Below are positions 15,827 through 46,050 of a DNA stretch of 48,914 nt, piece after piece (the stretch's first letter is position 1; every line of letters begins with the position of its first letter). The DNA lies in sequence record PZ445533.1, one strand, 5' to 3'. The stretch comes from a phage. The notes below the pieces were generated by a model. That model saw only the letters and a list, made by a program, of their open reading frames with translations. It searched no databases and was not told where the DNA came from. The position numbers were made by a program, and so were the translations under genes.

Positions 15827-15848
15827 CCCGCCTTGCGCGGGTTTTTTT
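15827..15848 (+). terminator. Rho-independent terminator after tail I gene
   Basis: CCCGC CTTGC GCGGG plus T7. Confidence 0.6.
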
Positions 15849-15897
15849 GTGCATTTATAATGTGCAAACCAAGAAACAGCACAAAAGGTTAAAAGTC

Positions 15898-18800
15898 ATG
15901 GCTAAATATATGATAAGCGGCAGTAAGGGCGGAAGCAAAAAGCCATACGTGCCAAAAGAGATGGAAGATAACCTGATCTCGATAAACAAGATTAAAGTTT
16001 TGCTGGCTGTATCTGATGGCGAGTGCGATCCAGATTTCACGTTGCGCGATCTTTATCTTGATGATGTTCCGGTTATTGCCAGCGATGGCACTGTTAACTA
16101 CGAGGGAGTTACGGCTGAATATCGACCAGGTACGCAGACGCAAGATTACATCCAGGGTTTTACTGACACATCAAGTGAGGTGACAGTTGCAAGAGATATT
16201 ACCGGAGACAATCCTTATGTTATTTCTGTTACAAATAAAAATCTATCTGCGGTAAGAATAAAGATCCTGATGCCAGTAGGCATTAAAACAGAGGATAACG
16301 GCGATCTTGTTGGCGTAAGGGTTGAGTATGCCGTAGATATGGCTGTTGATGGCGGTTCTTATAGCGAGGTTATGAGAGATGTAATTGACGGCAAGACAAG
16401 ATCAGGATACGACCGCAGCAGAAGGATTGATCTTCCTAAGTTTGATGAGCGCGTTTTAATCCGAGTAAAGCGACTGACTCCAGACAGCACATCTTCAAAG
16501 GTGACTGATAAAATCAAGCTGCAAAGTTACGCTGAGGTTGTTGATGCAAAATTCCGCTATCCTCTGACTGGACTTGTATTCGTAGAATTTGACAGCGAAT
16601 TGTTTCCTACGCAAATCCCTAACATTTCTATAAAAAAGAAATGGAAGATTATTAATGTGCCAAGCAACTATGATCCAATATCAAGAGAATATCACGGGTC
16701 ATGGGATGGGACTTTTAAAAAAGCGTGGTCAAATAATCCTGCTTGGGTTCTTTATGATCTGGTGACAAATCAGCGTTATGGACTTGATCAGCGAGAGTTA
16801 GGAATACAGATCGACAAGTGGAGCTTATACGAGGCGGGCGTTTACTGCGATCAGAAAGTTCCAGACGGTAAAGGCGGCACTGAGCCTCGCTACCTATGCG
16901 ATGTGGTGATTCAGAATCAAGTTGAGGCTTATCAGCTAATCCGTGACATTTGCTCAATCTTTCGCGGAATGAGTTTTTGGAATGGTGAGAGCTTATCAAT
17001 CGTGATTGATAAGCCGCGCGATCCATCATACGTGTTTACTAATGAAAACGTCATCAACGGTGATTTTCAGTACACAAACGCAAGCGAAAAAAGCATGTAC
17101 ACGCAGTGTAACGTGACGTTTGACGACGAACAAAACATGTATCAGCAGGACGTAGAGGGGGTTTTTGATACTGAGGCGGCATTACGATTTGGATACAACC
17201 CAACAAGCATTACAGCGATCGGGTGTACGCGCAGGAGCGAAGCGAATCGTCGCGGTCGTTGGGTTTTGAAAACAAACCTTAGAAGCACTACTGTAAACTT
17301 TGCTACCGGACTAGAGGGGATGATTCCATCAATAGGTGATGTTATTGCTATCGCTGATAATTTTCAGAGTAGCAACCTAACGTTAAACCTATCGGGCCGA
17401 GTAATGGAAGTTTCAGGGCTGCAGGTTTTCGTTCCGTTTAAGGTTGATGCTCGCCCTGGTGATTTTATTATCATCAACAAGCCGGACGGCAAGCCAGTTA
17501 AGCGCACGATCTCAAAGGTTAGCGCAGACGGAAAAACCATTGAGTTAAATATTGGATTTGGTTTTGATGTTAAGCCTGATACTGTTTTTGCGATTGACCG
17601 TACTGATCTTGCGTTGCAGCAATACGTTGTGACAACCATCAGCAAGGGTGATGACGAAAACGAGTTTACCTATTCAATCACGGCTGTAGAGTACGATCCG
17701 AACAAATACGACGAGATTGATTATGGAGTAAACATTGATGACAGACCGACTTCAATTGTTCAGCCTGACGTGATGGCAGCGCCTGAGAACGTTAAGATCT
17801 CATCTTATTCTCGCGTCGTGCAGGGTGTTAGCGTTGAGACTATGGTTGTTTCATGGGATAAGGTTCCTTACGCATCGCTTTATGAAATGCAGTGGCGAAA
17901 AGGTGATGGTAACTGGCTGAATACGCCGCAGACCGCTAACAAAGAGATAGAGGTAGAAGGGATTTACTCTGGCAACTACCAAGTAAGGGTGAGATCCGTT
18001 TCTGCAAGCGGTAACGCTTCCCCGTGGTCAAAGATTGCAACCGCCACTCTGACAGGTAAAGTTGGCGAGCCAGGAGCGCCGATTAATCTTACGGCTTCTG
18101 ATAATGAAGTTTTTGGCATTCGTGTCAAATGGGGTATGCCGGAAGGATCAGGCGATACGGCTTACATTGAGCTTCACCAATCGCCAGACGGAACGGTTGA
18201 AAACTCAAGTCTGCTTACGCTGATTCCATATCCTCAATATGAGTATTGGCATAGCACGTTACCAGCGGGGCAAGTTGTATGGTATAGAATCCGCAGCGTT
18301 GACAGAATAGGCAACGTTTCAAGCTGGACTGACTTTGTTCGCGGCATGGCGTCAGATGACGTTGAATCTGTTTTGGGCGACATTCTGGACAAGATTTTTG
18401 ATACAGAAGCTGGTCAAGAAATCAAAGAGAACGCCATAGACAGTGCCAATAAAATCAAAGACCAGGCGCAATCAATCATACAGAACGCGTTGGCAAATGA
18501 TGCAGATGTGAAGTGGACGCGAGTGCAAAACGGAAAGCGCAAGGCTGAATATGGTCATGCTCTTGAGCTTATCGCCAATGAAACAGAAGCGCGCGTAACT
18601 CAAATCGAAGAGTTAAGGGCTTCAATTGATGGCGAGATAACATCAAGCATCAAGACAGTGCAGGAGGCAATTGCCACTGAATCAGAGACGCGAGCGACTC
18701 AAATTCAGCAGCTTGATTCTAAATTCACAAAAGAAATCGACGGCGTGCGCAAGGATACTTCTGCAAGCATTAGCGATGTAAGGCAGACAATCACTAACGA

Positions 18801-19476
18801 GTCAGAAGCGCGCGCTCAGGCCGTTCAGCAGCTTGACGCTAAGTTCACGAAAGAGATAAACGACCTTGACGGAGTTATCAAAACAGAAGTCGAGGCTAAC
18901 ATCTCAGAAGTGAAACAGGCGATCGCCAATGAGACAGAGGCAAGGGTTCAGGCTGACCAGGCATTAACAGCACGATTTGGCGACGTTGAATCTGCATTGG
19001 TTGAAAAGTTGGATTCTTGGGCGAGCGTTGATTCAGTTGGCGCTAAATACGCTATGAAACTTGGCCTTACTTACAAAGGCCAGCAATACAGCGCAGGAAT
19101 GGTGATGCAGCTTTCGCAGGGTTCATCCGGCCTTATCTCGCAAATTTTGTTTGATGCTAACAGGTTCGCCATTATGACTAGCTCTACTGGAGGGACTTTT
19201 ACTTTGCCTTTCGTGGTTGAGAATAATCAGGTTTTCATTAATAGTCTTTTGGTGAAGAACGGTTCAATCACTAATGCGATGATTGGTAATGTGATTCAGT
19301 CAAACAACTTTGTTCAAAACCAGCAAGGATGGAGGCTTGATAAAAACGGAATCTTTGAGAATTACGGATCAACGCCAGGAGAAGGAGCTACTAAATTCAC
19401 CAATGAGGGATTGAAGGTAAAAGATGCAAACGGAGTATTGAGGGTTGAAGTCGGAAGGATTACCGGAAGCTGGTAA
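15898..19476 (+). CDS. Central tail fibre / host specificity protein J-like
   Basis: ~1190 aa ORF after M-L-K-I; C-terminal coiled repeat region (ETEARVTQIEEL-type repeats); strong terminator after stop. Confidence 0.8.
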   Translation: MAKYMISGSKGGSKKPYVPKEMEDNLISINKIKVLLAVSDGECDPDFTLRDLYLDDVPVIASDGTVNYEGVTAEYRPGTQTQDYIQGFTDTSSEVTVARDITGDNPYVISVTNKNLSAVRIKILMPVGIKTEDNGDLVGVRVEYAVDMAVDGGSYSEVMRDVIDGKTRSGYDRSRRIDLPKFDERVLIRVKRLTPDSTSSKVTDKIKLQSYAEVVDAKFRYPLTGLVFVEFDSELFPTQIPNISIKKKWKIINVPSNYDPISREYHGSWDGTFKKAWSNNPAWVLYDLVTNQRYGLDQRELGIQIDKWSLYEAGVYCDQKVPDGKGGTEPRYLCDVVIQNQVEAYQLIRDICSIFRGMSFWNGESLSIVIDKPRDPSYVFTNENVINGDFQYTNASEKSMYTQCNVTFDDEQNMYQQDVEGVFDTEAALRFGYNPTSITAIGCTRRSEANRRGRWVLKTNLRSTTVNFATGLEGMIPSIGDVIAIADNFQSSNLTLNLSGRVMEVSGLQVFVPFKVDARPGDFIIINKPDGKPVKRTISKVSADGKTIELNIGFGFDVKPDTVFAIDRTDLALQQYVVTTISKGDDENEFTYSITAVEYDPNKYDEIDYGVNIDDRPTSIVQPDVMAAPENVKISSYSRVVQGVSVETMVVSWDKVPYASLYEMQWRKGDGNWLNTPQTANKEIEVEGIYSGNYQVRVRSVSASGNASPWSKIATATLTGKVGEPGAPINLTASDNEVFGIRVKWGMPEGSGDTAYIELHQSPDGTVENSSLLTLIPYPQYEYWHSTLPAGQVVWYRIRSVDRIGNVSSWTDFVRGMASDDVESVLGDILDKIFDTEAGQEIKENAIDSANKIKDQAQSIIQNALANDADVKWTRVQNGKRKAEYGHALELIANETEARVTQIEELRASIDGEITSSIKTVQEAIATESETRATQIQQLDSKFTKEIDGVRKDTSASISDVRQTITNESEARAQAVQQLDAKFTKEINDLDGVIKTEVEANISEVKQAIANETEARVQADQALTARFGDVESALVEKLDSWASVDSVGAKYAMKLGLTYKGQQYSAGMVMQLSQGSSGLISQILFDANRFAIMTSSTGGTFTLPFVVENNQVFINSLLVKNGSITNAMIGNVIQSNNFVQNQQGWRLDKNGIFENYGSTPGEGATKFTNEGLKVKDANGVLRVEVGRITGSW

Positions 19477-19503: not shown

Positions 19504-20118
19504 TTAATCATAGTGTGATGCATTTATAACCAAAACAGATGAAGCGGTGTAAATACCAACAGGTCCAGGAGTTTGTGCAACCTGCCTAGAAAAAGAGTAG
19601 ATCCCGTTACCATACGCGGCAGCTTGAGACTCAAAAATCATGAATCCACCTAAAGCCGGATTAGGAACAGAGTTTAATGCTGTCAGTGATGGCATTATGG
19701 CGCAAGGATAGCCCATGTTAACATCAAATGCGATCCCGCTTACGCCTACTTGCTTTGCATCTAGCGGCCTCATTTTTCCATGATAAACCATTTCACCATG
19801 AGCATTATAAAACGCTATGCCGTGACTACCTGGGGGAGTAACCATATTACTAAAAGCATAAACAATAACCTCACCCTGATTATCAGATCTATCAAGTCTT
19901 ATTGCGTGCCTTCCACCATTGTTAAATTGCGTGAATGATATGTATGATTTAGCGGTCAATCTAACAAAGAAAAAACATACCCTATCAACAGGAATTGACG
20001 AAGTAAAAACGGTTCCGGTATTAGCAGATATTACAGCCCGATCAATTAGATTAACTGGAGTGAAATCTGGACTTAACCATAACGATCCGTCTGATTTTTT
20101 TATACTCATCCCGTACAT
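19504..20118 (-). CDS. Hypothetical protein, third gene of cor operon
   Basis: 204 aa; GGTGA RBS; overlaps upstream gene end. Confidence 0.5.
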   Translation of the reverse strand: MYGMSIKKSDGSLWLSPDFTPVNLIDRAVISANTGTVFTSSIPVDRVCFFFVRLTAKSYISFTQFNNGGRHAIRLDRSDNQGEVIVYAFSNMVTPPGSHGIAFYNAHGEMVYHGKMRPLDAKQVGVSGIAFDVNMGYPCAIMPSLTALNSVPNPALGGFMIFESQAAAYGNGIYSFSRQVAQTPGPVGIYTASSVLVINASHYD

Positions 20119-20120
20119 TA

Positions 20121-20399
20121 TCACCCCCAAAAAGTATATATATATCTTGAATCAGATCCAGAAAGCCCACTCCATGTAACGGTGTCGCCACTCACCCCTA
20201 AGTTTGGTGCGCCAGGGTCGCCACCACGCCAGGAATTCATGCCAACATATATTGCTTTCAATGATTTACCTGGCGGCCTGTTTTGGTAAGTCTTGCTACC
20301 TGATGGCTGAGTGAATTTATCAAGGAAGAAAACAGGCGTTAAAAGTCCTGTAACTTCCCTTCCTCGATCGTCATATATTGCATAACCATATTGCGCCAT
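20121..20399 (-). CDS. Hypothetical protein
   Basis: 92 aa; TAATG overlap with cor-like gene. Confidence 0.5.
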   Translation of the reverse strand: MAQYGYAIYDDRGREVTGLLTPVFFLDKFTQPSGSKTYQNRPPGKSLKAIYVGMNSWRGGDPGAPNLGVSGDTVTWSGLSGSDSRYIYTFWG

Positions 20400-20674
20400 T
20401 AATTACACCTCAAATCAATAAATTTACTTTCATTTTGCCAACGGTTGATAAATTTAACTTCTTTATTGTCAACGCTCAACCTGTATTGCTTTTGGCTGAA
20501 TCTGTTTTCGCGGACTGCATTAATTTTGACTTCATGTAACCCGTTAACAGGGAATGTTTTAACGTTAAATTTTGCCGTGCAATCGATCTCCTTGAAGTTG
20601 CCAGTAGGCGACGCTGCGCATCCTGTCAGAGCGGCTACAGTGGCGATAACTGCGATTAACTTTTTCATCTTCAA
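20399..20674 (-). CDS. Lipoprotein, Cor-like superinfection exclusion candidate
   Basis: 91 aa; signal peptide plus lipobox LTGC; located next to J on opposite strand as cor is in T1/phi80-like phages; motif-type promoter cassette upstream. Confidence 0.55.
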   Translation of the reverse strand: MKMKKLIAVIATVAALTGCAASPTGNFKEIDCTAKFNVKTFPVNGLHEVKINAVRENRFSQKQYRLSVDNKEVKFINRWQNESKFIDLRCN

Positions 20675-22297: not shown

Positions 22298-22954
<657 letters not shown>

Positions 22955-24232: not shown

Positions 24233-24511
24233 TTAAGCCCATCCTCTAATAGACTGATCTAACTCAACCACGTATCCATTAAAAATTACGGCATCAAACT
24301 TATCATCAATGATTCGCACATTAACGAAATAGCCGTCGTTCTTTCGCGCAATCTCCTCGCCATCGTCAGATCGTGCAATTACTGTATAAGTATTGCCGAT
24401 TACATCGAGCAGGATTGCATCCTGAATGGATTCGTTATCATCCCAATTAATTTTTCCTAAAAAGGCCGAAAACTCGGCCTTGTCTGAAAATTTTAATGTT
24501 AAATCACGCAT
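24233..24511 (-). CDS. Hypothetical protein between fibre genes
   Basis: 92 aa; TAATG overlap with upstream fibre gene. Confidence 0.45.
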   Translation of the reverse strand: MRDLTLKFSDKAEFSAFLGKINWDDNESIQDAILLDVIGNTYTVIARSDDGEEIARKNDGYFVNVRIIDDKFDAVIFNGYVVELDQSIRGWA

Positions 24512-26487
24512 TAAACAATTTCCCCCAATTGATGATCTGTTAGTGCCTTGTGCCATATACGGAAGTTTCTAACGTGCCCGAAAAGATGACGTTCTCCCGT
24601 AGTTGTTTGTCCGCCAATCCTTATAGTAGCCGTTGATACTATATATCTCCATTCCGTTTTTGTTTCGCTTGATATTCTGGCATTACTTACACAGCAATTA
24701 TTGTAATCACTCTTTACTCTCATTCCCACGATCATCTTTTTTAGTTTTGCATTCTCGTAAACCCTTCTGTTTGATCCACCTATATCGCAATAAGGGAATC
24801 CGTCATTATCGCCTTCGGCAGACCCGAAAGCAAGAATAATTGCCGCTCCGGTTTGATGGCCGCCTGTATCAAAAACACGTGGCGCTGCGTTTGGCGTTAT
24901 ACTCCAGTTTTTATGAGCTTCCACAAGCAATGTAAACGGCAAATTGTAAAGGTTGTTTTTTATTGGCAATGCAACCATATCGCTTGCCCGTGTTACTGGA
25001 GTATCTTCTGTAATAATAAAGGATGAAGCGCACGCCCCACCTTCAACTTGAGGTGTCGCAATATAAATATAATCATCCGCACCAGTGCCAACTCCTTTTG
25101 CTGGGGCATACTGAACCATTCCACCTATCATATTTTCTGTATCAAGTGCCTTAATTGTCGCCTCAAAAAAGATCCATTTGCTTGCTTCATCTTTAACAGC
25201 CCTTGCAGTAATACGATTTGCAGCGCCGCCAGTTTTTTCAATTGATAAATCTGTCAGATTTACGTAAGCATCACCCAAAAATGCATAAGCAGATCCATCG
25301 TAGTTTTCAAATCGTAATCGGCATCTTAAATTTGGAGTCCCACTTTGCGCCCTGCATGATATGGTTACATACTTTTCATTTCCTGTTACATCAAAACCTC
25401 TACTGCCGGAAACGGTTACTATGTTAATCGATGAAGTTTGCCCTACCATTTCTGGTTTTAATGTAAATTTTGCGTACTGGAATCCGAAATTATCCACACC
25501 TGATCTATCTAAGATCATATTTGATGACTTGTTCCATTTTGAAGGATTGACGCTATTTATAAGAAGGTTTGTTCTTTGCCCCTCAATTAGCAGACCATCC
25601 TTTTCAAATCTAGGTTCATCAATAGCAGCATTAGTAAGCACCCCAGACTTATTAATGTAAGTAGCGGCTGATGCTCGTTTAAACTTAACTATCTTGTCAC
25701 CTGGCATCGTGATCTCATCGTCACCTATAACAATCTTTTTGTATGACGGCGAGAATCCGGTAATCATATCCAGGGAGTCATTAAATGGTATCCACACGTC
25801 CGGCAACGGTTGCAATAAGTCCTTGTAAGGTTCTGCCGCCTGCTTTGCGTATTCCTCCGCCTGATCTCGCGCACTTTCAGCTCCTGCCTTTGCAGTGTTC
25901 GCAGCGTCACGCGCGGATTCAGCGCCAGACTTTGCTGCTTCAGCGCCAGTCTTTGCAGTGTTTGCAGCGTCGCGCGCGGATTCAGCGGCAGCCTTTGCAG
26001 TATCAGCACCTTTCTTGCTATTCGCTGCATTTGTTGCGCTTGTCTTCGCGTTATTCTCGCTGGTTTTAGCTGCCTGCTGGCTTGCTGCTGCTGCGTCAGC
26101 ATTTGTCTTTACGTCTTCCTGGATCTTCTGTAGCTTATCCCAATCAAAATCCTTGATGATCTCAATAAATCCAGCAAACTCCGATTCCTTCCCCTGGTAA
26201 TAACGCAGCGTTTCCGCTACGTCTTGCGCAAGACCGTCAACCGTTAACGAGTCATGAAGCAAGATCAGGTAATTTGTCTTCTGGACTACCGCGCCGCCAG
26301 TAGTAATTGCGCGAATGCTTGTATCGCTAATCACTTCTGTAATCACAGCAGCTTGCAAAGGTTGAGCAAGAAAGAAAATAGTTGCGCCTGGGCGAATCAA
26401 TGTTAATTGCTCACGCCATTTTGTACCGTAACCAGTTACATAACCTTGCGCGTCCATAGACGCTTGGCCTTGTCTGTAAATCGCCAT
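24511..26487 (-). CDS. Tail fibre / receptor-binding protein
   Basis: 658 aa from ATG 26487 (AGGAGG RBS); Ala/Lys-rich repeated coiled region (AESARDAANTAK x3), C-terminal lectin/LamG-like region. Confidence 0.65.
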   Translation of the reverse strand: MAIYRQGQASMDAQGYVTGYGTKWREQLTLIRPGATIFFLAQPLQAAVITEVISDTSIRAITTGGAVVQKTNYLILLHDSLTVDGLAQDVAETLRYYQGKESEFAGFIEIIKDFDWDKLQKIQEDVKTNADAAAASQQAAKTSENNAKTSATNAANSKKGADTAKAAAESARDAANTAKTGAEAAKSGAESARDAANTAKAGAESARDQAEEYAKQAAEPYKDLLQPLPDVWIPFNDSLDMITGFSPSYKKIVIGDDEITMPGDKIVKFKRASAATYINKSGVLTNAAIDEPRFEKDGLLIEGQRTNLLINSVNPSKWNKSSNMILDRSGVDNFGFQYAKFTLKPEMVGQTSSINIVTVSGSRGFDVTGNEKYVTISCRAQSGTPNLRCRLRFENYDGSAYAFLGDAYVNLTDLSIEKTGGAANRITARAVKDEASKWIFFEATIKALDTENMIGGMVQYAPAKGVGTGADDYIYIATPQVEGGACASSFIITEDTPVTRASDMVALPIKNNLYNLPFTLLVEAHKNWSITPNAAPRVFDTGGHQTGAAIILAFGSAEGDNDGFPYCDIGGSNRRVYENAKLKKMIVGMRVKSDYNNCCVSNARISSETKTEWRYIVSTATIRIGGQTTTGERHLFGHVRNFRIWHKALTDHQLGEIV

Positions 26488-26502
26488 TTGTAAAATCCTC
26501 CT

Positions 26503-26522
26503 AAATAGCACTTTTTGCTAAT
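26503..26522 (+). repeat. Isolated copy of 21-bp box upstream of tail fibre gene (opposite orientation)
   Basis: AAATAGCACTTTTTGCTAAT located 10 nt beyond fibre gene RBS. Confidence 0.5.
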
Positions 26523-30140: not shown

Positions 30141-30559
30141 TGGCTATAACTGATAAAGGAGATTATCTTGAGTTTTACGAAAGAGATCCAACCGACACTA
30201 GAAAGGAAGTTAATCACCAGATAGATAGCTTTCAGTGGTTGACTTATGCTCATCCTTACTTGCTGGCGTGGCATACGGTAAACGAGAATGAGAAGTCGAA
30301 AGTAACGGCGATGATTGATCAGCAGTCCGGCTTGGTTAAGGGGGTAAGCGATTTCATCATCCTGATTGGTTCAAACGGAAAATACCCCTTTGCAGCGATT
30401 GAGATCAAACGAGTTAATAAATCAGGCAAGGGGAAAGCATCACCAGTCAGCGATGAACAAAAGGCTTTTTTGCGTCGCGTTCGCAGTTTAGGAGGATTCG
30501 CTGCGGTCGCCTACGGATTTAATCAGTTTAAGTTAGCTATTGAATACATGCTTAAATAG
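30140..30559 (+). CDS. VRR-NUC domain nuclease
   Basis: GVSDFIIL...AAIEIKR...DEQKAFL pattern typical of VRR-NUC PD-(D/E)XK fold; TAATG overlap with helicase. Confidence 0.7.
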   Translation: MAITDKGDYLEFYERDPTDTRKEVNHQIDSFQWLTYAHPYLLAWHTVNENEKSKVTAMIDQQSGLVKGVSDFIILIGSNGKYPFAAIEIKRVNKSGKGKASPVSDEQKAFLRRVRSLGGFAAVAYGFNQFKLAIEYMLK

Positions 30560-30612
30560 CACTTTTTGTTAAAACTGGCGCGATGGATTGCGCCATAATT
30601 CAATAACACGAG
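30553..30612 (+). promoter_or_regulatory. Motif cassette (21-bp box + hairpin + ATAAT) upstream of dam
   Basis: AAATAGCACTTTTTGTTAAAAC with TAG as stop of VRR-NUC gene; hairpin GGCGCGATGGATTGCGCC; CATAAT 22 nt after TTGTTA. Confidence 0.5.
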
Positions 30613-33469: not shown

Positions 33470-33685
33470 ATGAAAGATTTTATTAACGCAGCTACCGCTG
33501 GATCTGGCGGTTCATCTATCGCAAGCGCCGCTACAGGGCAGTTAACCATTGCTATTGCCAGCTTTGTTTTAATGGCTGCATTCGGTGCATGGGGCGCTTA
33601 CCTTCGCTGGCGTGATAGTAAAAAATTCCACGAAGCGATCGAAAAAGGTGATATTCAAAAAGCTATTGAAATCAGGGGCAAGTAA
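33470..33685 (+). CDS. Holin (putative)
   Basis: 71 aa, one or two TM segments, charged C-terminus, immediately upstream of endolysin (TAATG overlap). Confidence 0.55.
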
Positions 33686-34176
33686 TGAGCATAAAGAACA
33701 GGGTAGCGGCTGCGGCCTTTGGCGTTGCGGTTGCCTTGACTTCTCCACTTCTTGAAGAGATCGAAGGGGTAAGATACAAGCCATACAAAGATATTGCTGG
33801 AGTATGGACGGTTTGCGCAGGAATCACCGGACCAGATGTTATCCTGGGGAAAACGTACACTAAAAAAGAGTGTGATGCTTTGTTGGCTAAGCATATCCAG
33901 GTTGCTAAAAAGGAAGTTGACAAGCAAGTTAAGGTTGATATTCCTGATAGTATGCGTGCAGCAATGTACTCATTCACTTACAATGCAGGTGTGGGAGCTT
34001 TCAGAAATTCAACAATGCTGAAACTCATCAACCAGGGGAAATTAAACGAGGCTTGCGATCAGCTTTATCGTTGGACTTATTACCATAACCCAAAAACAGG
34101 AAAGCGCGAGAAGTCTAAAGGCTTACTTAACAGGCGCAAGGTCGAATACAAATATTGCACAATGGATCTGAAATGA
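33685..34176 (+). CDS. SAR endolysin, T4-lysozyme-like (GH24)
   Basis: E-x8-D-x5-T catalytic triad pattern ([19 protein letters not shown]) preceded by Ala/Gly-rich signal-anchor-release segment. Confidence 0.8.
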
Positions 34177-34568
34177 TGAAGAATTTTTTACTTACACCAA
34201 TCGCAATGGCGGTGATCTTGTCTGGATGTTCAAGCGTTACGCCACTGACCGGATTAATCGGCAGTAAGCCGGAAATCACAGCACAGGCTGGAGCGGAGAA
34301 CGTGAAGCAGACAGTTGGCATTACAGCAAAGCAGGACGCCAGCACAAAACAGGAAACCACAATAAAGGAATCTGCGGTTGACAAGGTGGACACGTCCAGC
34401 AAGAAGGATTTCACAACATCAACCATTCAGGCCAATACCATCAAGGCAGACAAAATTCAGGTCGTGCAGGGTAATAACGGCAGATGGTACGATCCGGTAA
34501 TCATATGCGTGGTTGTGTTAATTGTGCTGATTTTTCTTTACTGGAGAGAAAAGAAAAAGGAGGCTTAA
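34176..34568 (+). CDS. Unimolecular spanin (T1 gp11-like)
   Basis: N-terminal lipoprotein signal with lipobox LSGC plus C-terminal TM helix (VIICVVVLIVLIFLYW) in one polypeptide; overlaps endolysin stop. Confidence 0.7.
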   Translation: MKNFLLTPIAMAVILSGCSSVTPLTGLIGSKPEITAQAGAENVKQTVGITAKQDASTKQETTIKESAVDKVDTSSKKDFTTSTIQANTIKADKIQVVQGNNGRWYDPVIICVVVLIVLIFLYWREKKKEA

Positions 34569-37659: not shown

Positions 37660-37727
37660 CTCCTTTGTTTGTTCGATGTGATTATGCCAGGTTTTTACAC
37701 CTGGCTTTTAACAAAAAGTGCTATTTT
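37660..37727 (-). promoter_or_regulatory. Motif cassette
   Basis: Minus-strand motif containing methyltransferase stop TAG, hairpin GCCAGGTGTAAAAACCTGGC, ATAATC, TCGAACAAACAAAGGAG. Confidence 0.5.
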
Positions 37728-39574: not shown

Positions 39575-39643
39575 CCTCGTTTGTTGTCGATGCGCTTACT
39601 ATACCAATCAGCAGCGCATCGTTTTTAACAAAAAGTGCTATTT
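39575..39643 (-). promoter_or_regulatory. Motif cassette
   Basis: Minus-strand motif, hairpin GATGCGCT...AGCGCATC with TATAGT in loop, CATCGACAACAAACGAGGA. Confidence 0.5.
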
Positions 39644-40867: not shown

Positions 40868-40874
40868 TTACTAT

Positions 40875-40946
40875 CTCCTGAGCGGTTCGTTTCGATGTGT
40901 GTAATGTACCCGATCAGGCGGCCTGATTTTTAACAAAAAGTGCTAT
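40875..40946 (-). promoter_or_regulatory. Motif cassette at head of leftward small-gene operon
   Basis: Minus-strand motif, hairpin ATCAGGCCGCCTGAT, TACATT, CATCGAAACGAACC, RBS AGGAG. Confidence 0.5.
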
Positions 40947-40949
40947 TTG

Positions 40950-41485
40950 ACGGTTAGCACCAGGATTGTGATCGAAATAATCAAAAGTAATCATTCGTAA
41001 TCAAATCACGTCAAAATGATGATTGCCTTTGCAAATTTGATGAGAAAAGTAATCACGTTTAATCATTGGTTGCAGGGGAGATAGTGAAACCCTCCACTCT
41101 TGCCTCACTTTTCCGCCTGGCTGTCAGTGGTTGTTATGTTCCGTTCCCGCCTGTTCTTTTGTTGACCTTCCGCAAAATACGATAACAAAAAATAACAAAC
41201 AATACCTATATAATACATTGAAAAATAAGGATTATTTATTTATATGTATCTATATATTCTCTTTTGTTATCTTGGTTATTGTGGTATTTGGTGGGGGTAT
41301 ATAGTTTTTGTGTATCTGTATGTGTGTATGGGTATGTAGGGGCATATATATCTATATGGCACTTTCCGCGAGAAAACTTCGATAACAGGCAATGATAACA
41401 TTGATTTATAAGGAAAAATAACGCCCATATTGTTATTGTGCCACCATATAAAATTGATAAAACACGCGGGAACAAGAAAAAACAG
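40950..41485. repeat. AT-rich divergent control region B, homologous to region A, with (G)TAATCA iteron-like repeats
   Basis: Five TAATCA copies 40975-41075; shared blocks TTATTTATTTAT, GTATCTGTATGTG, GGGAACAAGAAAAA with region A. Confidence 0.5.
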
Positions 41486-41514
41486 TTGACACATTAAATA
41501 GCATTATTGATAAT
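41486..41514 (+). promoter_or_regulatory. Sigma70-like promoter (TTGACA-17-GATAAT) for rightward operon
   Basis: TTGACA 41486-41491, 17-nt spacer, GATAAT 41509-41514, RBS AGGAGG and ATG 41544 downstream. Confidence 0.6.
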
Positions 41515-41543
41515 GCCGACACCTAACAACCAGGAGGTAGAAA

Positions 41544-42008
41544 ATGAGCGAGCAATCATTCACTGACACGCTGCGCCGTGCAGCTATTATGCTGGCTAAT
41601 GGCGAGGAAGAGACGATCAAGATTCCTGACGCGTATTTGCAGGTCCACATGTTCGGCAAGAAGTCGGCAAGCAATCCGGCGGCCTACATTCGCCAGATCA
41701 TGAGTCGAGTGCCAGAAGTCGCCGAGCGGGGGCGCGTATCCGTTACCCGTGGCGTTTACGGGCCGGAAGATGAAAACTTCGGTAGCACTTTCTACGAGGT
41801 GCGGATTGTTGAAGGCCGTCGCAAGGTTTACAACAAAGAGGCACTGGAAAGGGCAGTGCGCCAGGCTAAGCGCAAGGTTGCAGAGGCGATCATTGATATG
41901 TCACCAAACCTGGCAAACTATGCGCCGGAAGAGTACGAAACATTATCAAAGGCCGTCGCTGACTTTCACGCGATGATCAAAAAAACTTTCCTGGAGGATG
42001 AGCAATGA
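41544..42008 (+). CDS. Hypothetical protein, first gene of rightward operon
   Basis: 154 aa; AGGAGG RBS; canonical sigma70-like promoter about 30 bp upstream. Confidence 0.6.
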   Translation: MSEQSFTDTLRRAAIMLANGEEETIKIPDAYLQVHMFGKKSASNPAAYIRQIMSRVPEVAERGRVSVTRGVYGPEDENFGSTFYEVRIVEGRRKVYNKEALERAVRQAKRKVAEAIIDMSPNLANYAPEEYETLSKAVADFHAMIKKTFLEDEQ

Positions 42009-42277
42009 AAAAGGCATTAATCAGCGTTTTGGCGGCAATGGCATTCCTGACCGGATGCAAAGAAGATGGCGCGCATGTTGGCAATGTGCAGATGGCTAAC
42101 CCTGGTGATGACTACAGCGTAAGGGAGCTATTCACCGCTGACGGTTGCACCGTTTACCGATTCTATGACGATCGCACTGTTTACTTCACCAACTGCAAGG
42201 GCACTACTAGCTGGGAAGTGTCGAAAAGCAATGGCAAAGGCACGAAGACAGAACATATGACCGTCGAGACAAAATAG
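42005..42277 (+). CDS. Lipoprotein (second superinfection-exclusion candidate)
   Basis: 90 aa; signal peptide and lipobox LTGC; ATGA overlap with upstream gene; stop TAG within motif. Confidence 0.55.
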   Translation: MKKALISVLAAMAFLTGCKEDGAHVGNVQMANPGDDYSVRELFTADGCTVYRFYDDRTVYFTNCKGTTSWEVSKSNGKGTKTEHMTVETK

Positions 42278-42335
42278 CACTTTTTGTTAAAACTCAAATG
42301 TGGGGCCAGGTATAATGGCCTCACTTTCAACGAGA
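42272..42335 (+). promoter_or_regulatory. Motif cassette
   Basis: Motif with TAG stop of lipoprotein gene; hairpin GGCC...GGCC with TATAAT in loop, 21 nt after TTGTTA. Confidence 0.5.
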
Positions 42336-42346
42336 GGGGAAACGCG

Positions 42347-42574
42347 ATGGAAAGTTTAATCATCCAGAAGAAAATGAAGTGCGTCAGTGTAGCGCCAGGT
42401 TGCGGCTTTATGTTCACGGTGGGAAATATCTACTCCGCGCAGAAGATGAGAACATCAACCGGATCGTTTTACGTCAATAATAATCAGGGATTCCGCATGT
42501 TCCTGAACGGTCAAAGTGGCAACGAAATTTGCGCTTACGCCGACCTTATCGCAACCTTTGAGGAAGTGAAATAA
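42347..42574 (+). CDS. Hypothetical protein
   Basis: 75 aa from ATG 42347 with GAGGGG RBS downstream of motif cassette. Confidence 0.45.
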   Translation: MESLIIQKKMKCVSVAPGCGFMFTVGNIYSAQKMRTSTGSFYVNNNQGFRMFLNGQSGNEICAYADLIATFEEVK

Positions 42575-42987
42575 TGGATGACTGCATGCCGTTTCCTGGA
42601 TATAGAAATAAAGATGGTTACGGTCAGGTTTGCATAAATGGTGTAGTTGTTGGTGCTCACGGGTTAGCATATTGCAGAGCTAACAACCTTTCACTTAATG
42701 ATATACGTGGAATGGTTGTAAGGCATAGGTGTGATAATCCGCCGTGCTGCAATCCTGATCATTTGGAGATAGGAACGCAAAGGGATAACGTTATTGATTG
42801 CATAAAGCGAGGAAGGTTTAAAAGTAATGCTGGTGTTAATAATCCAAGAGCAAAATTGAATTACGACACAGCAGAAGAGATTCGCAAAGAGTACGCTAGC
42901 GGCGTAGTGTCTATGGGGGCGCTAGCTGAGAAATACATGGTTGGTAAAAGCACAATAAAAAGAGTTATTGACCGGAGCATTTGGTGA
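42574..42987 (+). CDS. HNH homing endonuclease
   Basis: HRCDNPPCCNPDHLEIGTQRDN HNH motif with Cys pairs; free-standing between small genes. Confidence 0.75.
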   Translation: MDDCMPFPGYRNKDGYGQVCINGVVVGAHGLAYCRANNLSLNDIRGMVVRHRCDNPPCCNPDHLEIGTQRDNVIDCIKRGRFKSNAGVNNPRAKLNYDTAEEIRKEYASGVVSMGALAEKYMVGKSTIKRVIDRSIW

Positions 42988-45475: not shown

Positions 45476-45655
45476 ATGAAAATAGCAATTATCACTTTTA
45501 TTGCCCTTATCGCTGGTTGCTACCTTGCTTATAATTATAGCGGCATTGTTGAGTCAATCGGCGGGTTGATTATCTTCATGGCTGGCGGTTATGCTGGCTA
45601 TTGTGACGGATTCGAAAACGGAAAGCGTTATGTGCTGACCGGAAAGAAAAAGTAA
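45476..45655 (+). CDS. Small membrane protein (two predicted TM segments)
   Basis: 59 aa from ATG 45476 with AGGA RBS; hydrophobic segments IAIITFIALIAGCYLAY and GGLIIFMAGGYAGY. Confidence 0.45.
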   Translation: MKIAIITFIALIAGCYLAYNYSGIVESIGGLIIFMAGGYAGYCDGFENGKRYVLTGKKK

Positions 45656-45699: not shown

Positions 45700-45990
45700 A
45701 TGGCAACTATGCGAAAAATGCTTATCAATGGCTTTGAAAGAGAAATTCGCCGTCGAGGCTGGGATGATTCTAAAAATTCACCTTACACTATCAATCGCGG
45801 AGAGTATAAATCAGTTCGACATTTTGCACGATGCCTGGCTGGATGCTACGACCTGGAGCATCCTTTCCCGTTCATGAACGAAACGCTAACCGAAATGATG
45901 GAAGAGGCCGCAACTCAAGATCGACCATTGACGCAACATGATTTTGATGAGTTTGCGCACTGGGAAATCGAATGTGCGCTATATAAATAG
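45700..45990 (+). CDS. Hypothetical protein
   Basis: 96 aa, AGGAGAA RBS; stop TAG within motif. Confidence 0.55.
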   Translation: MATMRKMLINGFEREIRRRGWDDSKNSPYTINRGEYKSVRHFARCLAGCYDLEHPFPFMNETLTEMMEEAATQDRPLTQHDFDEFAHWEIECALYK

Positions 45991-46050
45991 CACTTTTTGT
46001 TAAAACCAGCTTCGGCTGGTTTTGTATTATATGCGCATCGACAACAGAGG
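45985..46050 (+). promoter_or_regulatory. Motif cassette
   Basis: Motif with TAG stop, hairpin CCAGCTTCGGCTGG + T-run, TATTAT, CATCGACAACAGAGGAGG. Confidence 0.5.

What the first reader, a model, noticed from the sequence alone, without database searches (positions are those of the whole stretch)
42005..42277. Second, unrelated lipoprotein in the early rightward operon
90-aa protein with signal peptide and lipobox (LTGC) and no obvious similarity to the cor-like lipoprotein. Early-expressed phage lipoproteins (for example T5 Llp) block the receptor to prevent superinfection and virion inactivation by receptor-containing debris. Two distinct lipoproteins suggest two exclusion functions or two receptors.
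Basis: inference. Interest (0 to 1): 0.4.

Follow-up and report, generated by a model that had tools for sequence, protein, structure and literature searches.

The report
Uncharacterised DUF4884 phage lipoprotein gene
The 90-codon gene is real and encodes a small outer-membrane lipoprotein of the catalogued but unstudied DUF4884 family, common in phage accessory regions; nothing ties it to this phage's receptor, so a second receptor-blocking role remains a guess.

Summary
ORF 42005-42277(+) encodes a 90-aa protein with a textbook lipoprotein signal (MKKALISVLAAMAFLTGC, Cys18, +2 Lys). Its mature part shows no similarity to the cor-like lipoprotein, which lies on the minus strand at 20399-20674. 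The window is a T1-like coliphage (Drexlerviridae, Warwickvirus-like), and identical proteins are already deposited for phages tonn, orkinos and swan01.

The protein belongs to Pfam DUF4884 (about 1,800 clusters at 50% identity). Sampled members are nearly all 80-100 aa lipoproteins with one or two disulfides. All eight contexts examined were phage or prophage accessory-gene arrays.

An AlphaFold2 model (pLDDT 84) gives a disordered tether followed by a five-stranded beta meander. Cys48 and Cys64 are placed to staple a hairpin. No solved structure resembles it, and T5 Llp was not among the hits.

The gene is an independently exchanged cassette. Its allele does not follow the receptor-binding/cor locus or the lateral tail fibre. 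It sits with DUF7174 behind one of only three near-consensus sigma-70 promoters in the genome, which fits early expression.

No member has a known function. My best guess, at low confidence, is early envelope remodelling or exclusion through a conserved envelope target, not an Llp/Cor-type block of this phage's own receptor. The genome also encodes a third lipoprotein, the u-spanin.

The parts
41486..41514 (+). Near-consensus sigma-70 promoter (TTGACA-17-GATAAT) in front of the DUF7174/lipoprotein pair
   Evidence: 11 of 12 matches. It is one of only three sites at >=11/12 in the whole window. Activity is inferred, not shown.
41544..42008 (+). Upstream gene, 154 aa, DUF7174 (PF23796), no signal peptide. 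Its stop overlaps the lipoprotein start (ATGA).
   Evidence: E 2.5e-28. It is exchanged independently of the lipoprotein gene.
41993..41998 (+). Shine-Dalgarno GGAGGA, 6 nt before the ATG
   Evidence: Read directly from the sequence.
42005..42277 (+). DUF4884 lipoprotein gene (90 aa plus TAG)
   Evidence: Pfam PF16225 scores 31.8 bits against a cut-off of 30. It matches phrog_6360 and phrog_902. The protein is 100% identical in phages tonn, orkinos, swan01 and others.
42005..42058 (+). Lipoprotein signal peptide (residues 1-17) and lipobox L15-T16-G17-C18. Cys18 is the predicted lipidated N-terminus, and Lys at +2 predicts Lol sorting to the outer membrane.
   Evidence: Regex tests. Cys18 is conserved in >=90% of homologues. 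148 of 171 sampled family members carry a lipobox. Sorting follows the E. coli +2 rule (established knowledge).
42059..42118 (+). Variable, low-confidence tether (residues 19-38)
   Evidence: pLDDT is 67-73 in this stretch. Only 2-11 of 20 residues are identical between alleles.
42119..42274 (+). Five-stranded antiparallel beta domain (residues 39-90). It contains the conserved hairpin LFTxDGCTVYRFxD...YFTNC, with Cys48 (42146-42148) and Cys64 (42194-42196).
   Evidence: AlphaFold2 model md51164fd534f has pLDDT 88-94 here. C48 and C64 are invariant or nearly so. The hairpin register (54 pairs with 58, down to 48 with 64) puts the two cysteines opposite each other; this is inference.
42272..42292 (+). 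Copy of the 21-nt phage regulatory repeat AAATAGCACTTTTTGTTAAAA. It overlaps the lipoprotein stop codon and heads the next unit, which has a promoter-like site at 42287-42316.
   Evidence: The element is described for phage TLS in PMC11447400.
40928..40948 (-). Inverted copy of the same 21-nt repeat, heading the leftward operon. With the 42272 copy it brackets the 1.3-kb unit that holds the lipoprotein gene.
   Evidence: (I1: 25-nt arms, 96% complementary).

Best explanation
The gene encodes a small phage lipoprotein of the DUF4884 family. After Sec export, Cys18 would be lipidated and the signal peptide removed by signal peptidase II. With Lys at +2, the Lol pathway would carry the protein to the inner leaflet of the outer membrane. 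There a flexible tether of about 20 residues would hold a disulfide-stapled five-stranded beta domain of about 50 residues in the periplasm. The gene is transcribed with DUF7174 from a canonical host-type promoter, so probably very early. It is a non-essential accessory cassette that is swapped among related phages. I think its most likely job is to alter the infected cell's envelope early in infection by binding an envelope component that is conserved across Gram-negative hosts. The most probable outcome is exclusion of secondary phage or DNA entry, or protection of progeny, rather than a block of this phage's own terminal receptor in the manner of Llp or Cor. What is shown in silico: the gene, its family membership, the lipobox, the fold model, the distribution and the lack of linkage to host-recognition genes. 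What is inferred: localisation, timing, and above all the function. My confidence in the identity part is about 0.9. The confidence value given here is for the functional part.
For: The gene is real and conserved. A profile search found 1,795 clusters at E<=1e-3, and 142 of 143 aligned homologues match PF16225. Evidence for an envelope location: 148 of 171 sampled members have a lipobox, and the mature parts carry 2 or 4 cysteines in 137 of those 148. C48 and C64 are invariant or nearly so. Asp at +2 is rare in the family (8 of 148), and the window has Lys. The model is confident in the core. Every context examined was an array of small early or accessory genes in a phage or prophage. One sat next to Lar (restriction alleviation) and one sat two genes from Gad2. 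There is no copy in 72,556 plasmids or in 5,426 complete E. coli genomes. T1 itself lacks the gene, so it is dispensable. The cassette behaviour shows in two comparisons: against tiwna the flank is 97-100% identical but the gene only 50-78%, and against tonn the reverse holds. The hairpin core is 68-75% identical between Drexlerviridae alleles, while the tether and C-terminal strands are 10-55% identical. That pattern fits a conserved target. As established knowledge, the early phage lipoproteins of Gram-negative hosts that I know to be characterised (T5 Llp, T1/phi80/N15 Cor) are exclusion factors.
Confidence: 0.35

Rival explanations
1. The protein is an Llp/Cor-type blocker that binds the periplasmic face of a specific phage receptor, either this phage's own or a second one, closing it to superinfection and protecting progeny from debris.
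For: It is an early-expressed outer-membrane lipoprotein in a phage whose relatives use outer-membrane protein receptors. It is small and disulfide-bonded, as my recollection of Llp and the two conserved cysteines of the window's cor-like protein suggest for those proteins. The strands outside the hairpin vary a great deal between alleles, which could reflect a change of target.
Against: Allele identity is uncoupled from the RBP/cor locus and from the lateral tail fibre. The gene is about 21 kb from the receptor-binding locus, whereas Llp and Cor genes sit beside theirs. The core motif is conserved in phages of hosts that lack E. coli's receptors. There is no similarity to Cor, and Llp was not among the listed fold hits. 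The phage already carries a cor-like gene in the FhuA-type cassette.
Confidence: 0.12
2. The protein is a counter-defence or stress-silencing factor. It neutralises a host system that senses or acts in the envelope, for example a membrane-anchored defence system with a periplasmic domain, or the Rcs/sigma-E envelope-stress pathways.
For: It is placed among early accessory genes that include known counter-defence functions. These are Gad2 two genes away in one phage, Lar next door in another, and polynucleotide kinase close by in the window and in Rtp, which also has an Stp-like gene nearby. Rapid cassette exchange is typical of arms-race genes. A conserved core is consistent with a conserved host target.
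Against: There is no match to any PADLOC model, though that library holds defence proteins rather than anti-defence proteins. I know of no periplasmic anti-defence lipoprotein. The association with anti-defence genes is loose, because these arrays hold many unrelated genes.
Confidence: 0.2
3. The protein is a periplasmic inhibitor of a cell-wall hydrolase or a stabiliser of the envelope. It would protect the infected cell from lysis from without or from premature lysis, functionally like T4 Spackle or the lysozyme-inhibitor lipoproteins.
For: The protein is tethered in the periplasm in phages that use a SAR endolysin, which is exported early. The window has holin, SAR endolysin and u-spanin at 33470-34568. 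The family occurs in myoviruses as well as siphoviruses.
Against: The gene is not near the lysis cassette. The Pfam scans returned no lysozyme-inhibitor family. There is no fold match to such inhibitors.
Confidence: 0.1
4. The protein is a spanin component (an Rz1-like o-spanin), or the ORF is a chance ORF that is not expressed.
For: It is small and has a lipobox, like o-spanins.
Against: The genome already has a complete T1-type lysis cassette with a unimolecular spanin that has both a lipobox and a C-terminal membrane helix. This protein has no membrane helix, no adjacent i-spanin, and no link to lysis genes. A chance ORF is excluded by the size and conservation of the family, the strong ribosome-binding site and the translational coupling.
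Confidence: 0.02

Closest known systems
Pfam DUF4884 (PF16225), also PHROG 6360/902
   Same: The protein is a member. It scores above the curated cut-off, has the same length class, an N-terminal lipobox and the conserved DGCTVYRF...YFTNC hairpin with its cysteine pair.
   Different: The window's allele lacks the second cysteine pair (SCGKxC) that 92 of 148 sampled members have. The family has no characterised member.
T5 Llp and T1/phi80/N15 Cor (receptor-blocking superinfection-exclusion lipoproteins)
   Same: All are small outer-membrane lipoproteins made by virulent or temperate siphophages of enterobacteria. Early expression is plausible. They have a disulfide-containing mature domain.
   Different: There is no sequence similarity beyond the signal peptide. 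Llp was not among the listed fold hits. The gene is not beside the receptor-binding gene, and its allele is not linked to the receptor-binding locus. The family spans phages of unrelated hosts.
T1 gp11 unimolecular spanin / Rz1 o-spanins
   Same: These are phage-encoded outer-membrane lipoproteins.
   Different: The spanin is a separate gene at 34176-34568, with a C-terminal membrane helix, inside the lysis cassette. The DUF4884 protein has neither feature.
Lipoprotein_15 (PF03640), which I recall as the COG4315 'Yx(FWY)xxD' secreted lipoprotein repeat
   Same: There is a weak, recurrent sub-threshold match over the hairpin (E 0.007-0.02 in 14 of 143 members). The motif is similar (YRFYDD).
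   Different: The match is below the family cut-off (14.6 against 24.4 bits). That family is also of unknown function, so it adds no mechanism.
Plasmid entry-exclusion lipoproteins (TraT, TrbK, EexN)
   Same: They share the concept of a small lipoprotein that blocks incoming DNA at the envelope.
   Different: Only the signal peptide gives a weak hit to EexN (E 0.14). No DUF4884 gene was found on any of 72,556 plasmids.

Membership tests
Pfam DUF4884 (PF16225) | HMM score at or above the curated gathering threshold | tested here: met
   31.8 bits against a cut-off of 30, E 1.2e-7. 142 of 143 aligned homologues also match.
Pfam DUF4884 (PF16225) | About 80-100 aa with the conserved hairpin motif and cysteine pair | tested here: met
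   The protein is 90 aa. F53 and D55 are invariant, and C48, C64, Y51 and R52 are conserved in >=90% of sequences.
Bacterial lipoprotein (signal peptidase II substrate) | Positively charged n-region, hydrophobic h-region, and a lipobox [LVI][ASTVI][GAS]C with Cys at position 15-35 | tested here: met
   MKK / ALISVLAAMAF / LTGC, Cys18. Only four loci in the window match the rule.
Bacterial lipoprotein (signal peptidase II substrate) | Actual acylation and globomycin-sensitive processing, and outer-membrane localisation | not testable with these tools
   This needs palmitate labelling or globomycin treatment plus membrane fractionation. Lys at +2 only predicts outer-membrane sorting.
Llp/Cor superinfection-exclusion lipoproteins | Sequence or fold similarity of the mature domain to Llp or Cor | tested here: not met
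Llp/Cor superinfection-exclusion lipoproteins | Gene adjacent to, and co-varying with, the receptor-binding protein locus | tested here: not met
   The gene lies about 21 kb away. Phages with the same RBP/cor alleles carry DUF4884 alleles 45-56% identical.
Llp/Cor superinfection-exclusion lipoproteins | Binds and inactivates a phage receptor; its expression excludes phages that use that receptor | not testable with these tools
   This needs plating and adsorption assays on expressing cells.
Spanins (o-spanin or u-spanin) | Located in the lysis cassette, with an i-spanin partner or a C-terminal transmembrane helix | tested here: not met
   The lysis cassette is at 33470-34568 and has its own u-spanin. 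The DUF4884 protein has no C-terminal hydrophobic segment.

The most novel reading that the evidence does not exclude
DUF4884 could be a widespread, so far unrecognised class of phage envelope effectors. On this reading it is a lipid-anchored periplasmic hairpin domain that binds a component conserved across Gram-negative envelopes. It would thereby give receptor-independent exclusion of incoming phage DNA, or switch off an envelope-based host defence or stress sensor. The mechanism would be distinct from Llp and Cor.
Probability: 0.3. Interest if true: 0.55.

Novelty: already known. Interest (0 to 1): 0.27.

Why it matters
As it stands, this is an ordinary annotation result. The gene is a catalogued domain of unknown function, and identical copies are already deposited. 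Its value is as a lead. The family is large, almost entirely phage-borne in the sample examined, clearly periplasmic, exchanged as a cassette, and apparently expressed from one of the few host-type promoters of the genome. Those are the hallmarks of a gene involved in phage-host or phage-phage conflict at the cell envelope. Showing what it binds would assign a function to well over a thousand phage genes. It might also reveal an exclusion or counter-defence mechanism that does not depend on the phage's own receptor.

Tried and rejected
1. Simple duplication of the cor-like gene. Rejected, because BLASTP gives no alignment and the profile comparison aligns only the signal peptide.
2. Spanin. 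Rejected, because a complete lysis cassette with a u-spanin lies elsewhere.
4. Function by sequence. NCBIfam gave signal-peptide hits only. PADLOC and the PDB sequence search gave nothing.
5. Literature. Two papers mention DUF4884, with no functional data. The papers on T1-like phages (KanT1, TLS, BASEL) do not discuss this gene in the passages I searched.
6. Linkage to host-recognition modules (RBP, cor, lateral tail fibre). None found.
7. Obligate partnership with the upstream DUF7174 gene. Rejected, because tonn has the same lipoprotein with a DUF7174 region only about 50-65% identical at the DNA level, and tiwna shows the reverse. Other phages have different upstream genes.
8. Bacterial chromosomal context. 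The genome scan with the full alignment failed. The scan with the smaller alignment found 10 loci, nine in Pseudomonas and one in a deltaproteobacterial MAG. Two of the four I inspected showed prophage hallmarks such as SSB, integrase or methylase genes. The Bacteroides members named by Pfam were not examined.

Full report
**1. Observation**

Its product is MKKALISVLAAMAFLTGCKEDGAHVGNVQMANPGDDYSVRELFTADGCTVYRFYDDRTVYFTNCKGTTSWEVSKSNGKGTKTEHMTVETK. A GGAGGA ribosome-binding site lies 6 nt upstream, and the ATG overlaps the stop of the preceding gene as ATGA.

The N-terminus has a basic n-region, a hydrophobic stretch without charged residues, and the lipobox LTGC with Cys at position 18. I scanned every start/ORF combination of at least 40 aa in six frames, 1,330 in all, with two standard lipobox rules. 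Only four loci matched:
- this gene;
- the cor-like gene (20399..20668/20674, minus strand);
- the unimolecular spanin (34176..34568);
- a 59-aa ORF at 45476..45655, which looks more like a small two-helix membrane protein.

The lipobox is therefore not a chance match. BLASTP finds no alignment even at E = 100. An hhalign comparison of the two family alignments aligns only the 20 columns of the signal peptide.

Two small corrections apply. The cor-like gene is on the minus strand. The genome has at least three lipoproteins, because the lysis cassette encodes a T1-type u-spanin with lipobox LSGC and a C-terminal membrane helix. That cassette comprises the holin (33470-33685), the SAR endolysin (33685-34176) and the spanin.

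**2. What the window is**

The region matches T1-like coliphages of the family Drexlerviridae, subfamily Tempevirinae, genus Warwickvirus. The protein is 100% identical in phages tonn, orkinos, tunzivis, swan01, G3B1 and AV105. In those records it is annotated 'hypothetical protein'; in some related records it is 'DUF4884 domain-containing protein'.

**3. Family**

- The protein matches Pfam DUF4884 (PF16225) above the curated threshold, at 31.8 bits against 30. It also matches two PHROGs of unknown function.
- A profile search of 1.84 billion representative proteins found 1,795 clusters at E <= 1e-3 and 752 at E <= 1e-10. Almost all listed hits are 78-100 aa.
- Of 171 sampled members, 148 have a lipobox. 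Asp at +2, the inner-membrane retention signal in E. coli, is rare (8 of 148).
- The mature parts contain four cysteines in 92 members and two cysteines in 45.
- In the 143-sequence alignment, F53 and D55 are invariant. C18, L42, F43, G47, C48, Y51, R52, Y60, C64, G77 and K78 are conserved in at least 90% of sequences.
- 142 of the 143 members match PF16225 individually.

The window's allele has lost the second cysteine pair (consensus SCGKxC) that most members have. A weak, sub-threshold but recurrent match to Lipoprotein_15 (PF03640) covers the same hairpin. That family is also of unknown function.

**4. Structure**

With the shallow alignment the AlphaFold2 model was mediocre (pLDDT 65). 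With the 143-sequence alignment it reached pLDDT 84.4, and 88-94 over residues 40-90. The model shows:
- the signal-peptide helix;
- a low-confidence stretch at residues 19-38, which I read as a tether;
- a five-stranded antiparallel meander (strands 40-45, 48-54, 58-62, 66-75, 80-89).

The hairpin formed by strands 2 and 3 turns at residues 55-57. That register places Cys48 opposite Cys64, which fits a cross-strand disulfide. This is my inference from the register; I did not measure it on coordinates.

**5. Where homologues live**

In the annotated phage collection, 119 records carry a homologue. Many are Drexlerviridae, including Rtp (rtp3). Others are Serratia and Erwinia myoviruses, a Pantoea phage, Pseudomonas phage Dolphis and Xanthomonas phage X1. 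T1 itself has none (hmmsearch of six-frame translations), so the gene is dispensable for this phage family.

Every metagenomic or genomic context I examined was a phage or prophage, and in each the gene sat in a dense array of small accessory ORFs:
- a 124-kb T4-like contig, next to a Lar restriction-alleviation gene;
- a 71-kb phage, just after queuosine-pathway genes;
- a 169-kb contig;
- a 42-kb contig, two genes from Gad2;
- Pseudomonas loci, several with prophage hallmarks such as methylase, NinX-like and integrase genes.

There is no copy on 72,556 plasmids. There is no DNA match in 5,426 complete E. coli genomes.

**6. Test of the receptor idea**

The receptor-binding locus of this phage lies downstream of the J-like tail-tip gene (15847-19476). 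It consists of three minus-strand genes: 19504-20130, 20121-20399 and the cor-like lipoprotein. The first two correspond to the 'membrane associated / outer membrane protein' pair that accompanies cor in FhuA-dependent phages. Maffei et al. showed that alleles of this locus match the terminal receptor in Drexlerviridae (PMC8594841).

If the DUF4884 protein were a receptor-specific blocker, its allele should follow this locus. It does not.
- Atuna, tiwna, mar001J1, Kalemo, MatMar, BEBK14 and Jahat have cor-like proteins 95.6-97.8% identical and RBP-locus proteins 95-98.6% identical to the window's.
- Their DUF4884 proteins are only 45-56% identical.
- Conversely, tonijn and brachmannus differ in the RBP-locus protein (86.5%) but have 98-99% identical DUF4884.

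The lateral tail fibre is also unlinked. Phages with a 100% identical DUF4884 have fibres 96% (swan01, AV105), 73-77% (tonn, orkinos, tunzivis) or 61% (G3B1) identical.

**7. Cassette behaviour**

Sliding-window DNA identity shows clean breakpoints.
- Against tiwna, identity is 97-100% from 41120 to about 42020 (93% in the two windows before that). This covers the intergenic region, DUF7174 and the signal-peptide codons. It then drops to 50-78% across the mature lipoprotein.
- Against tonn, identity is about 50-70% across DUF7174 (41540-42019) and mostly 50-80% in the intergenic region upstream. It then rises to 98-100% across 42020-42260 and falls again after the stop codon.

The lipoprotein gene is therefore exchanged on its own, independently of its translationally coupled upstream neighbour. 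Between Drexlerviridae alleles the hairpin core (residues 39-66) keeps 68-75% identity, while the tether and the last two strands keep 10-55%.

**8. Expression signals**

The gene pair DUF7174 + DUF4884 follows a TTGACA-17-GATAAT site at 41486-41514. This is one of only three sites in the 48.9-kb window that match the sigma-70 consensus at 11 of 12 positions or better.

The pair is bracketed by two outward-facing copies of a 21-nt element, AAATAGCACTTTTTGTTAAAA. One is at 40928-40948 on the minus strand. The other is at 42272-42292 on the plus strand and overlaps the lipoprotein stop codon. The element occurs 16 times in the window, against none expected. Most copies (about 11 of the 16) are followed by a variable GC-rich hairpin, a -10-like box, a conserved leader and a ribosome-binding site.

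The same element was described for phage TLS (21 copies, about 76 nt upstream of start codons). [quoted passage not shown]

So most units of this genome start with the phage-specific element, while the lipoprotein unit starts with a plain host-type promoter. That fits immediate-early expression. It is an inference from sequence, because no transcript data were available.

**9. Interpretation**

The identity is secure. This is a real, conserved, non-essential phage gene for a DUF4884 lipoprotein. It is predicted to be anchored in the outer membrane with a tethered, disulfide-stapled beta domain in the periplasm.

The function is not known for any member. The searchable literature mentions DUF4884 twice, once in a gene table for phage Henu8 and once in a Bacteroides glycoproteome table.

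Four results count against it: position, lack of linkage, breadth of distribution, and lack of similarity. It is not excluded.

I commit, with low confidence (about 0.35), to a broader version. The protein is made early and changes the envelope by binding a component conserved among Gram-negative bacteria. The most likely result is exclusion of secondary infection or protection of progeny.

The main rival (about 0.2) is a counter-defence or stress-silencing role in the periplasm. The company the gene keeps suggests this (Gad2, Lar, polynucleotide kinase nearby). A Spackle-like inhibitor of wall hydrolases is a further possibility (about 0.1). A spanin role and a chance ORF are effectively refuted.

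**10. Novelty and interest**

The family is catalogued in Pfam and PHROGs, and identical proteins are in GenBank, so the object is already known. Only its function is open. A specialist would not be surprised to find another hypothetical lipoprotein among the early genes of a T1-like phage. The finding does single out a large, almost purely phage-borne periplasmic family with arms-race features, and it is cheap to test. I score interest at 0.27. I give a 0.3 chance that it represents a receptor-independent envelope effector distinct from Llp and Cor, which would merit about 0.55.

Noticed in passing
window 16 sites, e.g. 30554-30574(+), 37706-37726(-), 39623-39643(-), 40928-40948(-), 42272-42292(+), 45985-46005(+): The 21-nt element AAATAGCACTTTTTGTTAAAA occurs 16 times (up to 3 mismatches) against 0 expected. 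Most copies are followed by a sequence-variable GC-rich hairpin, a -10-like box, a conserved 'catcgaaacgaac'-type leader and an RBS. The same element was reported for phage TLS (PMC11447400). The variable hairpin between the element and the -10 box is not mentioned in the passages of that paper I read.
   Followed up: partly
window 33470-34568 (+): A complete T1-type lysis cassette: a 71-aa holin, a SAR endolysin (163 aa) and a unimolecular spanin. The spanin starts at 34176, has lipobox LSGC and a C-terminal membrane helix.
   Followed up: partly
window 45476-45655 (+): A 59-aa ORF whose N-terminus matches the lipobox rules (IAGC). It has two hydrophobic segments, so it is more likely a small membrane protein. 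It lies in the same rightward gene array.
   Followed up: no
window 19504-20674 (-): The receptor-binding and exclusion locus downstream of the J-like gene consists of three minus-strand genes: 208 aa, 92 aa and the 89/91-aa cor-like lipoprotein. The 208-aa protein is annotated 'membrane associated / outer membrane protein' in relatives and has homologues in Stx-converting and Klebsiella phages. The cor-like protein has no Pfam hit, has its own conserved cysteine pair (C30/C88), and aligns with T1 Cor mainly over the signal peptide (39% identity overall). Its likely start is the ATG at 20668 rather than the TTG at 20674.
   Followed up: partly
window 41000-42700 compared with L016 (tiwna) and L001 (tonn): Sharp mosaic breakpoints lie at about 42020 and about 42270. 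The lipoprotein gene and the DUF7174 gene are exchanged independently among Warwickviruses. The left breakpoint lies within or just after the signal-peptide codons, and the right one coincides with the 21-nt repeat.
   Followed up: yes
window 40868-41543: A 680-bp non-coding, AT-rich divergent control region lies between the leftward and rightward gene arrays. It contains short direct repeats (e.g. AAAAGTAATCA x3 at 40973-41065, and ATAACAAA repeats at 41182-41206) and small inverted repeats. Their function was not examined.
   Followed up: no
window 22899-22928 (+) and 26673-26645 (-): These are the only other two sites in the window that match the sigma-70 consensus at 11 of 12 positions. 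The minus-strand site lies upstream of the lateral tail fibre gene (24511-26511).
   Followed up: no
phage records MG065643, MG065657, MG065681 ('Campylobacter phage' E6, C4, A139; 49,946 bp): Records labelled as Campylobacter jejuni phages carry homologues of the DUF4884 protein (36% identity), and Campylobacter-labelled records also appear among the matches to the window's cor-like and RBP-locus proteins. Their size is T1-like. They look like T1-like enterobacterial phages, so the host label may be wrong.
   Followed up: no
L018 (phage Rtp) 1064-1383: The Rtp homologue is rtp3, the third annotated gene at the left genome end. It follows a 172-aa first gene (rtp1) that I did not test for DUF7174, and a 19-codon ORF. 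It lies just before the polynucleotide kinase gene, with an Stp-like gene further downstream. So the position at the head of this gene array is kept across subfamilies.
   Followed up: partly
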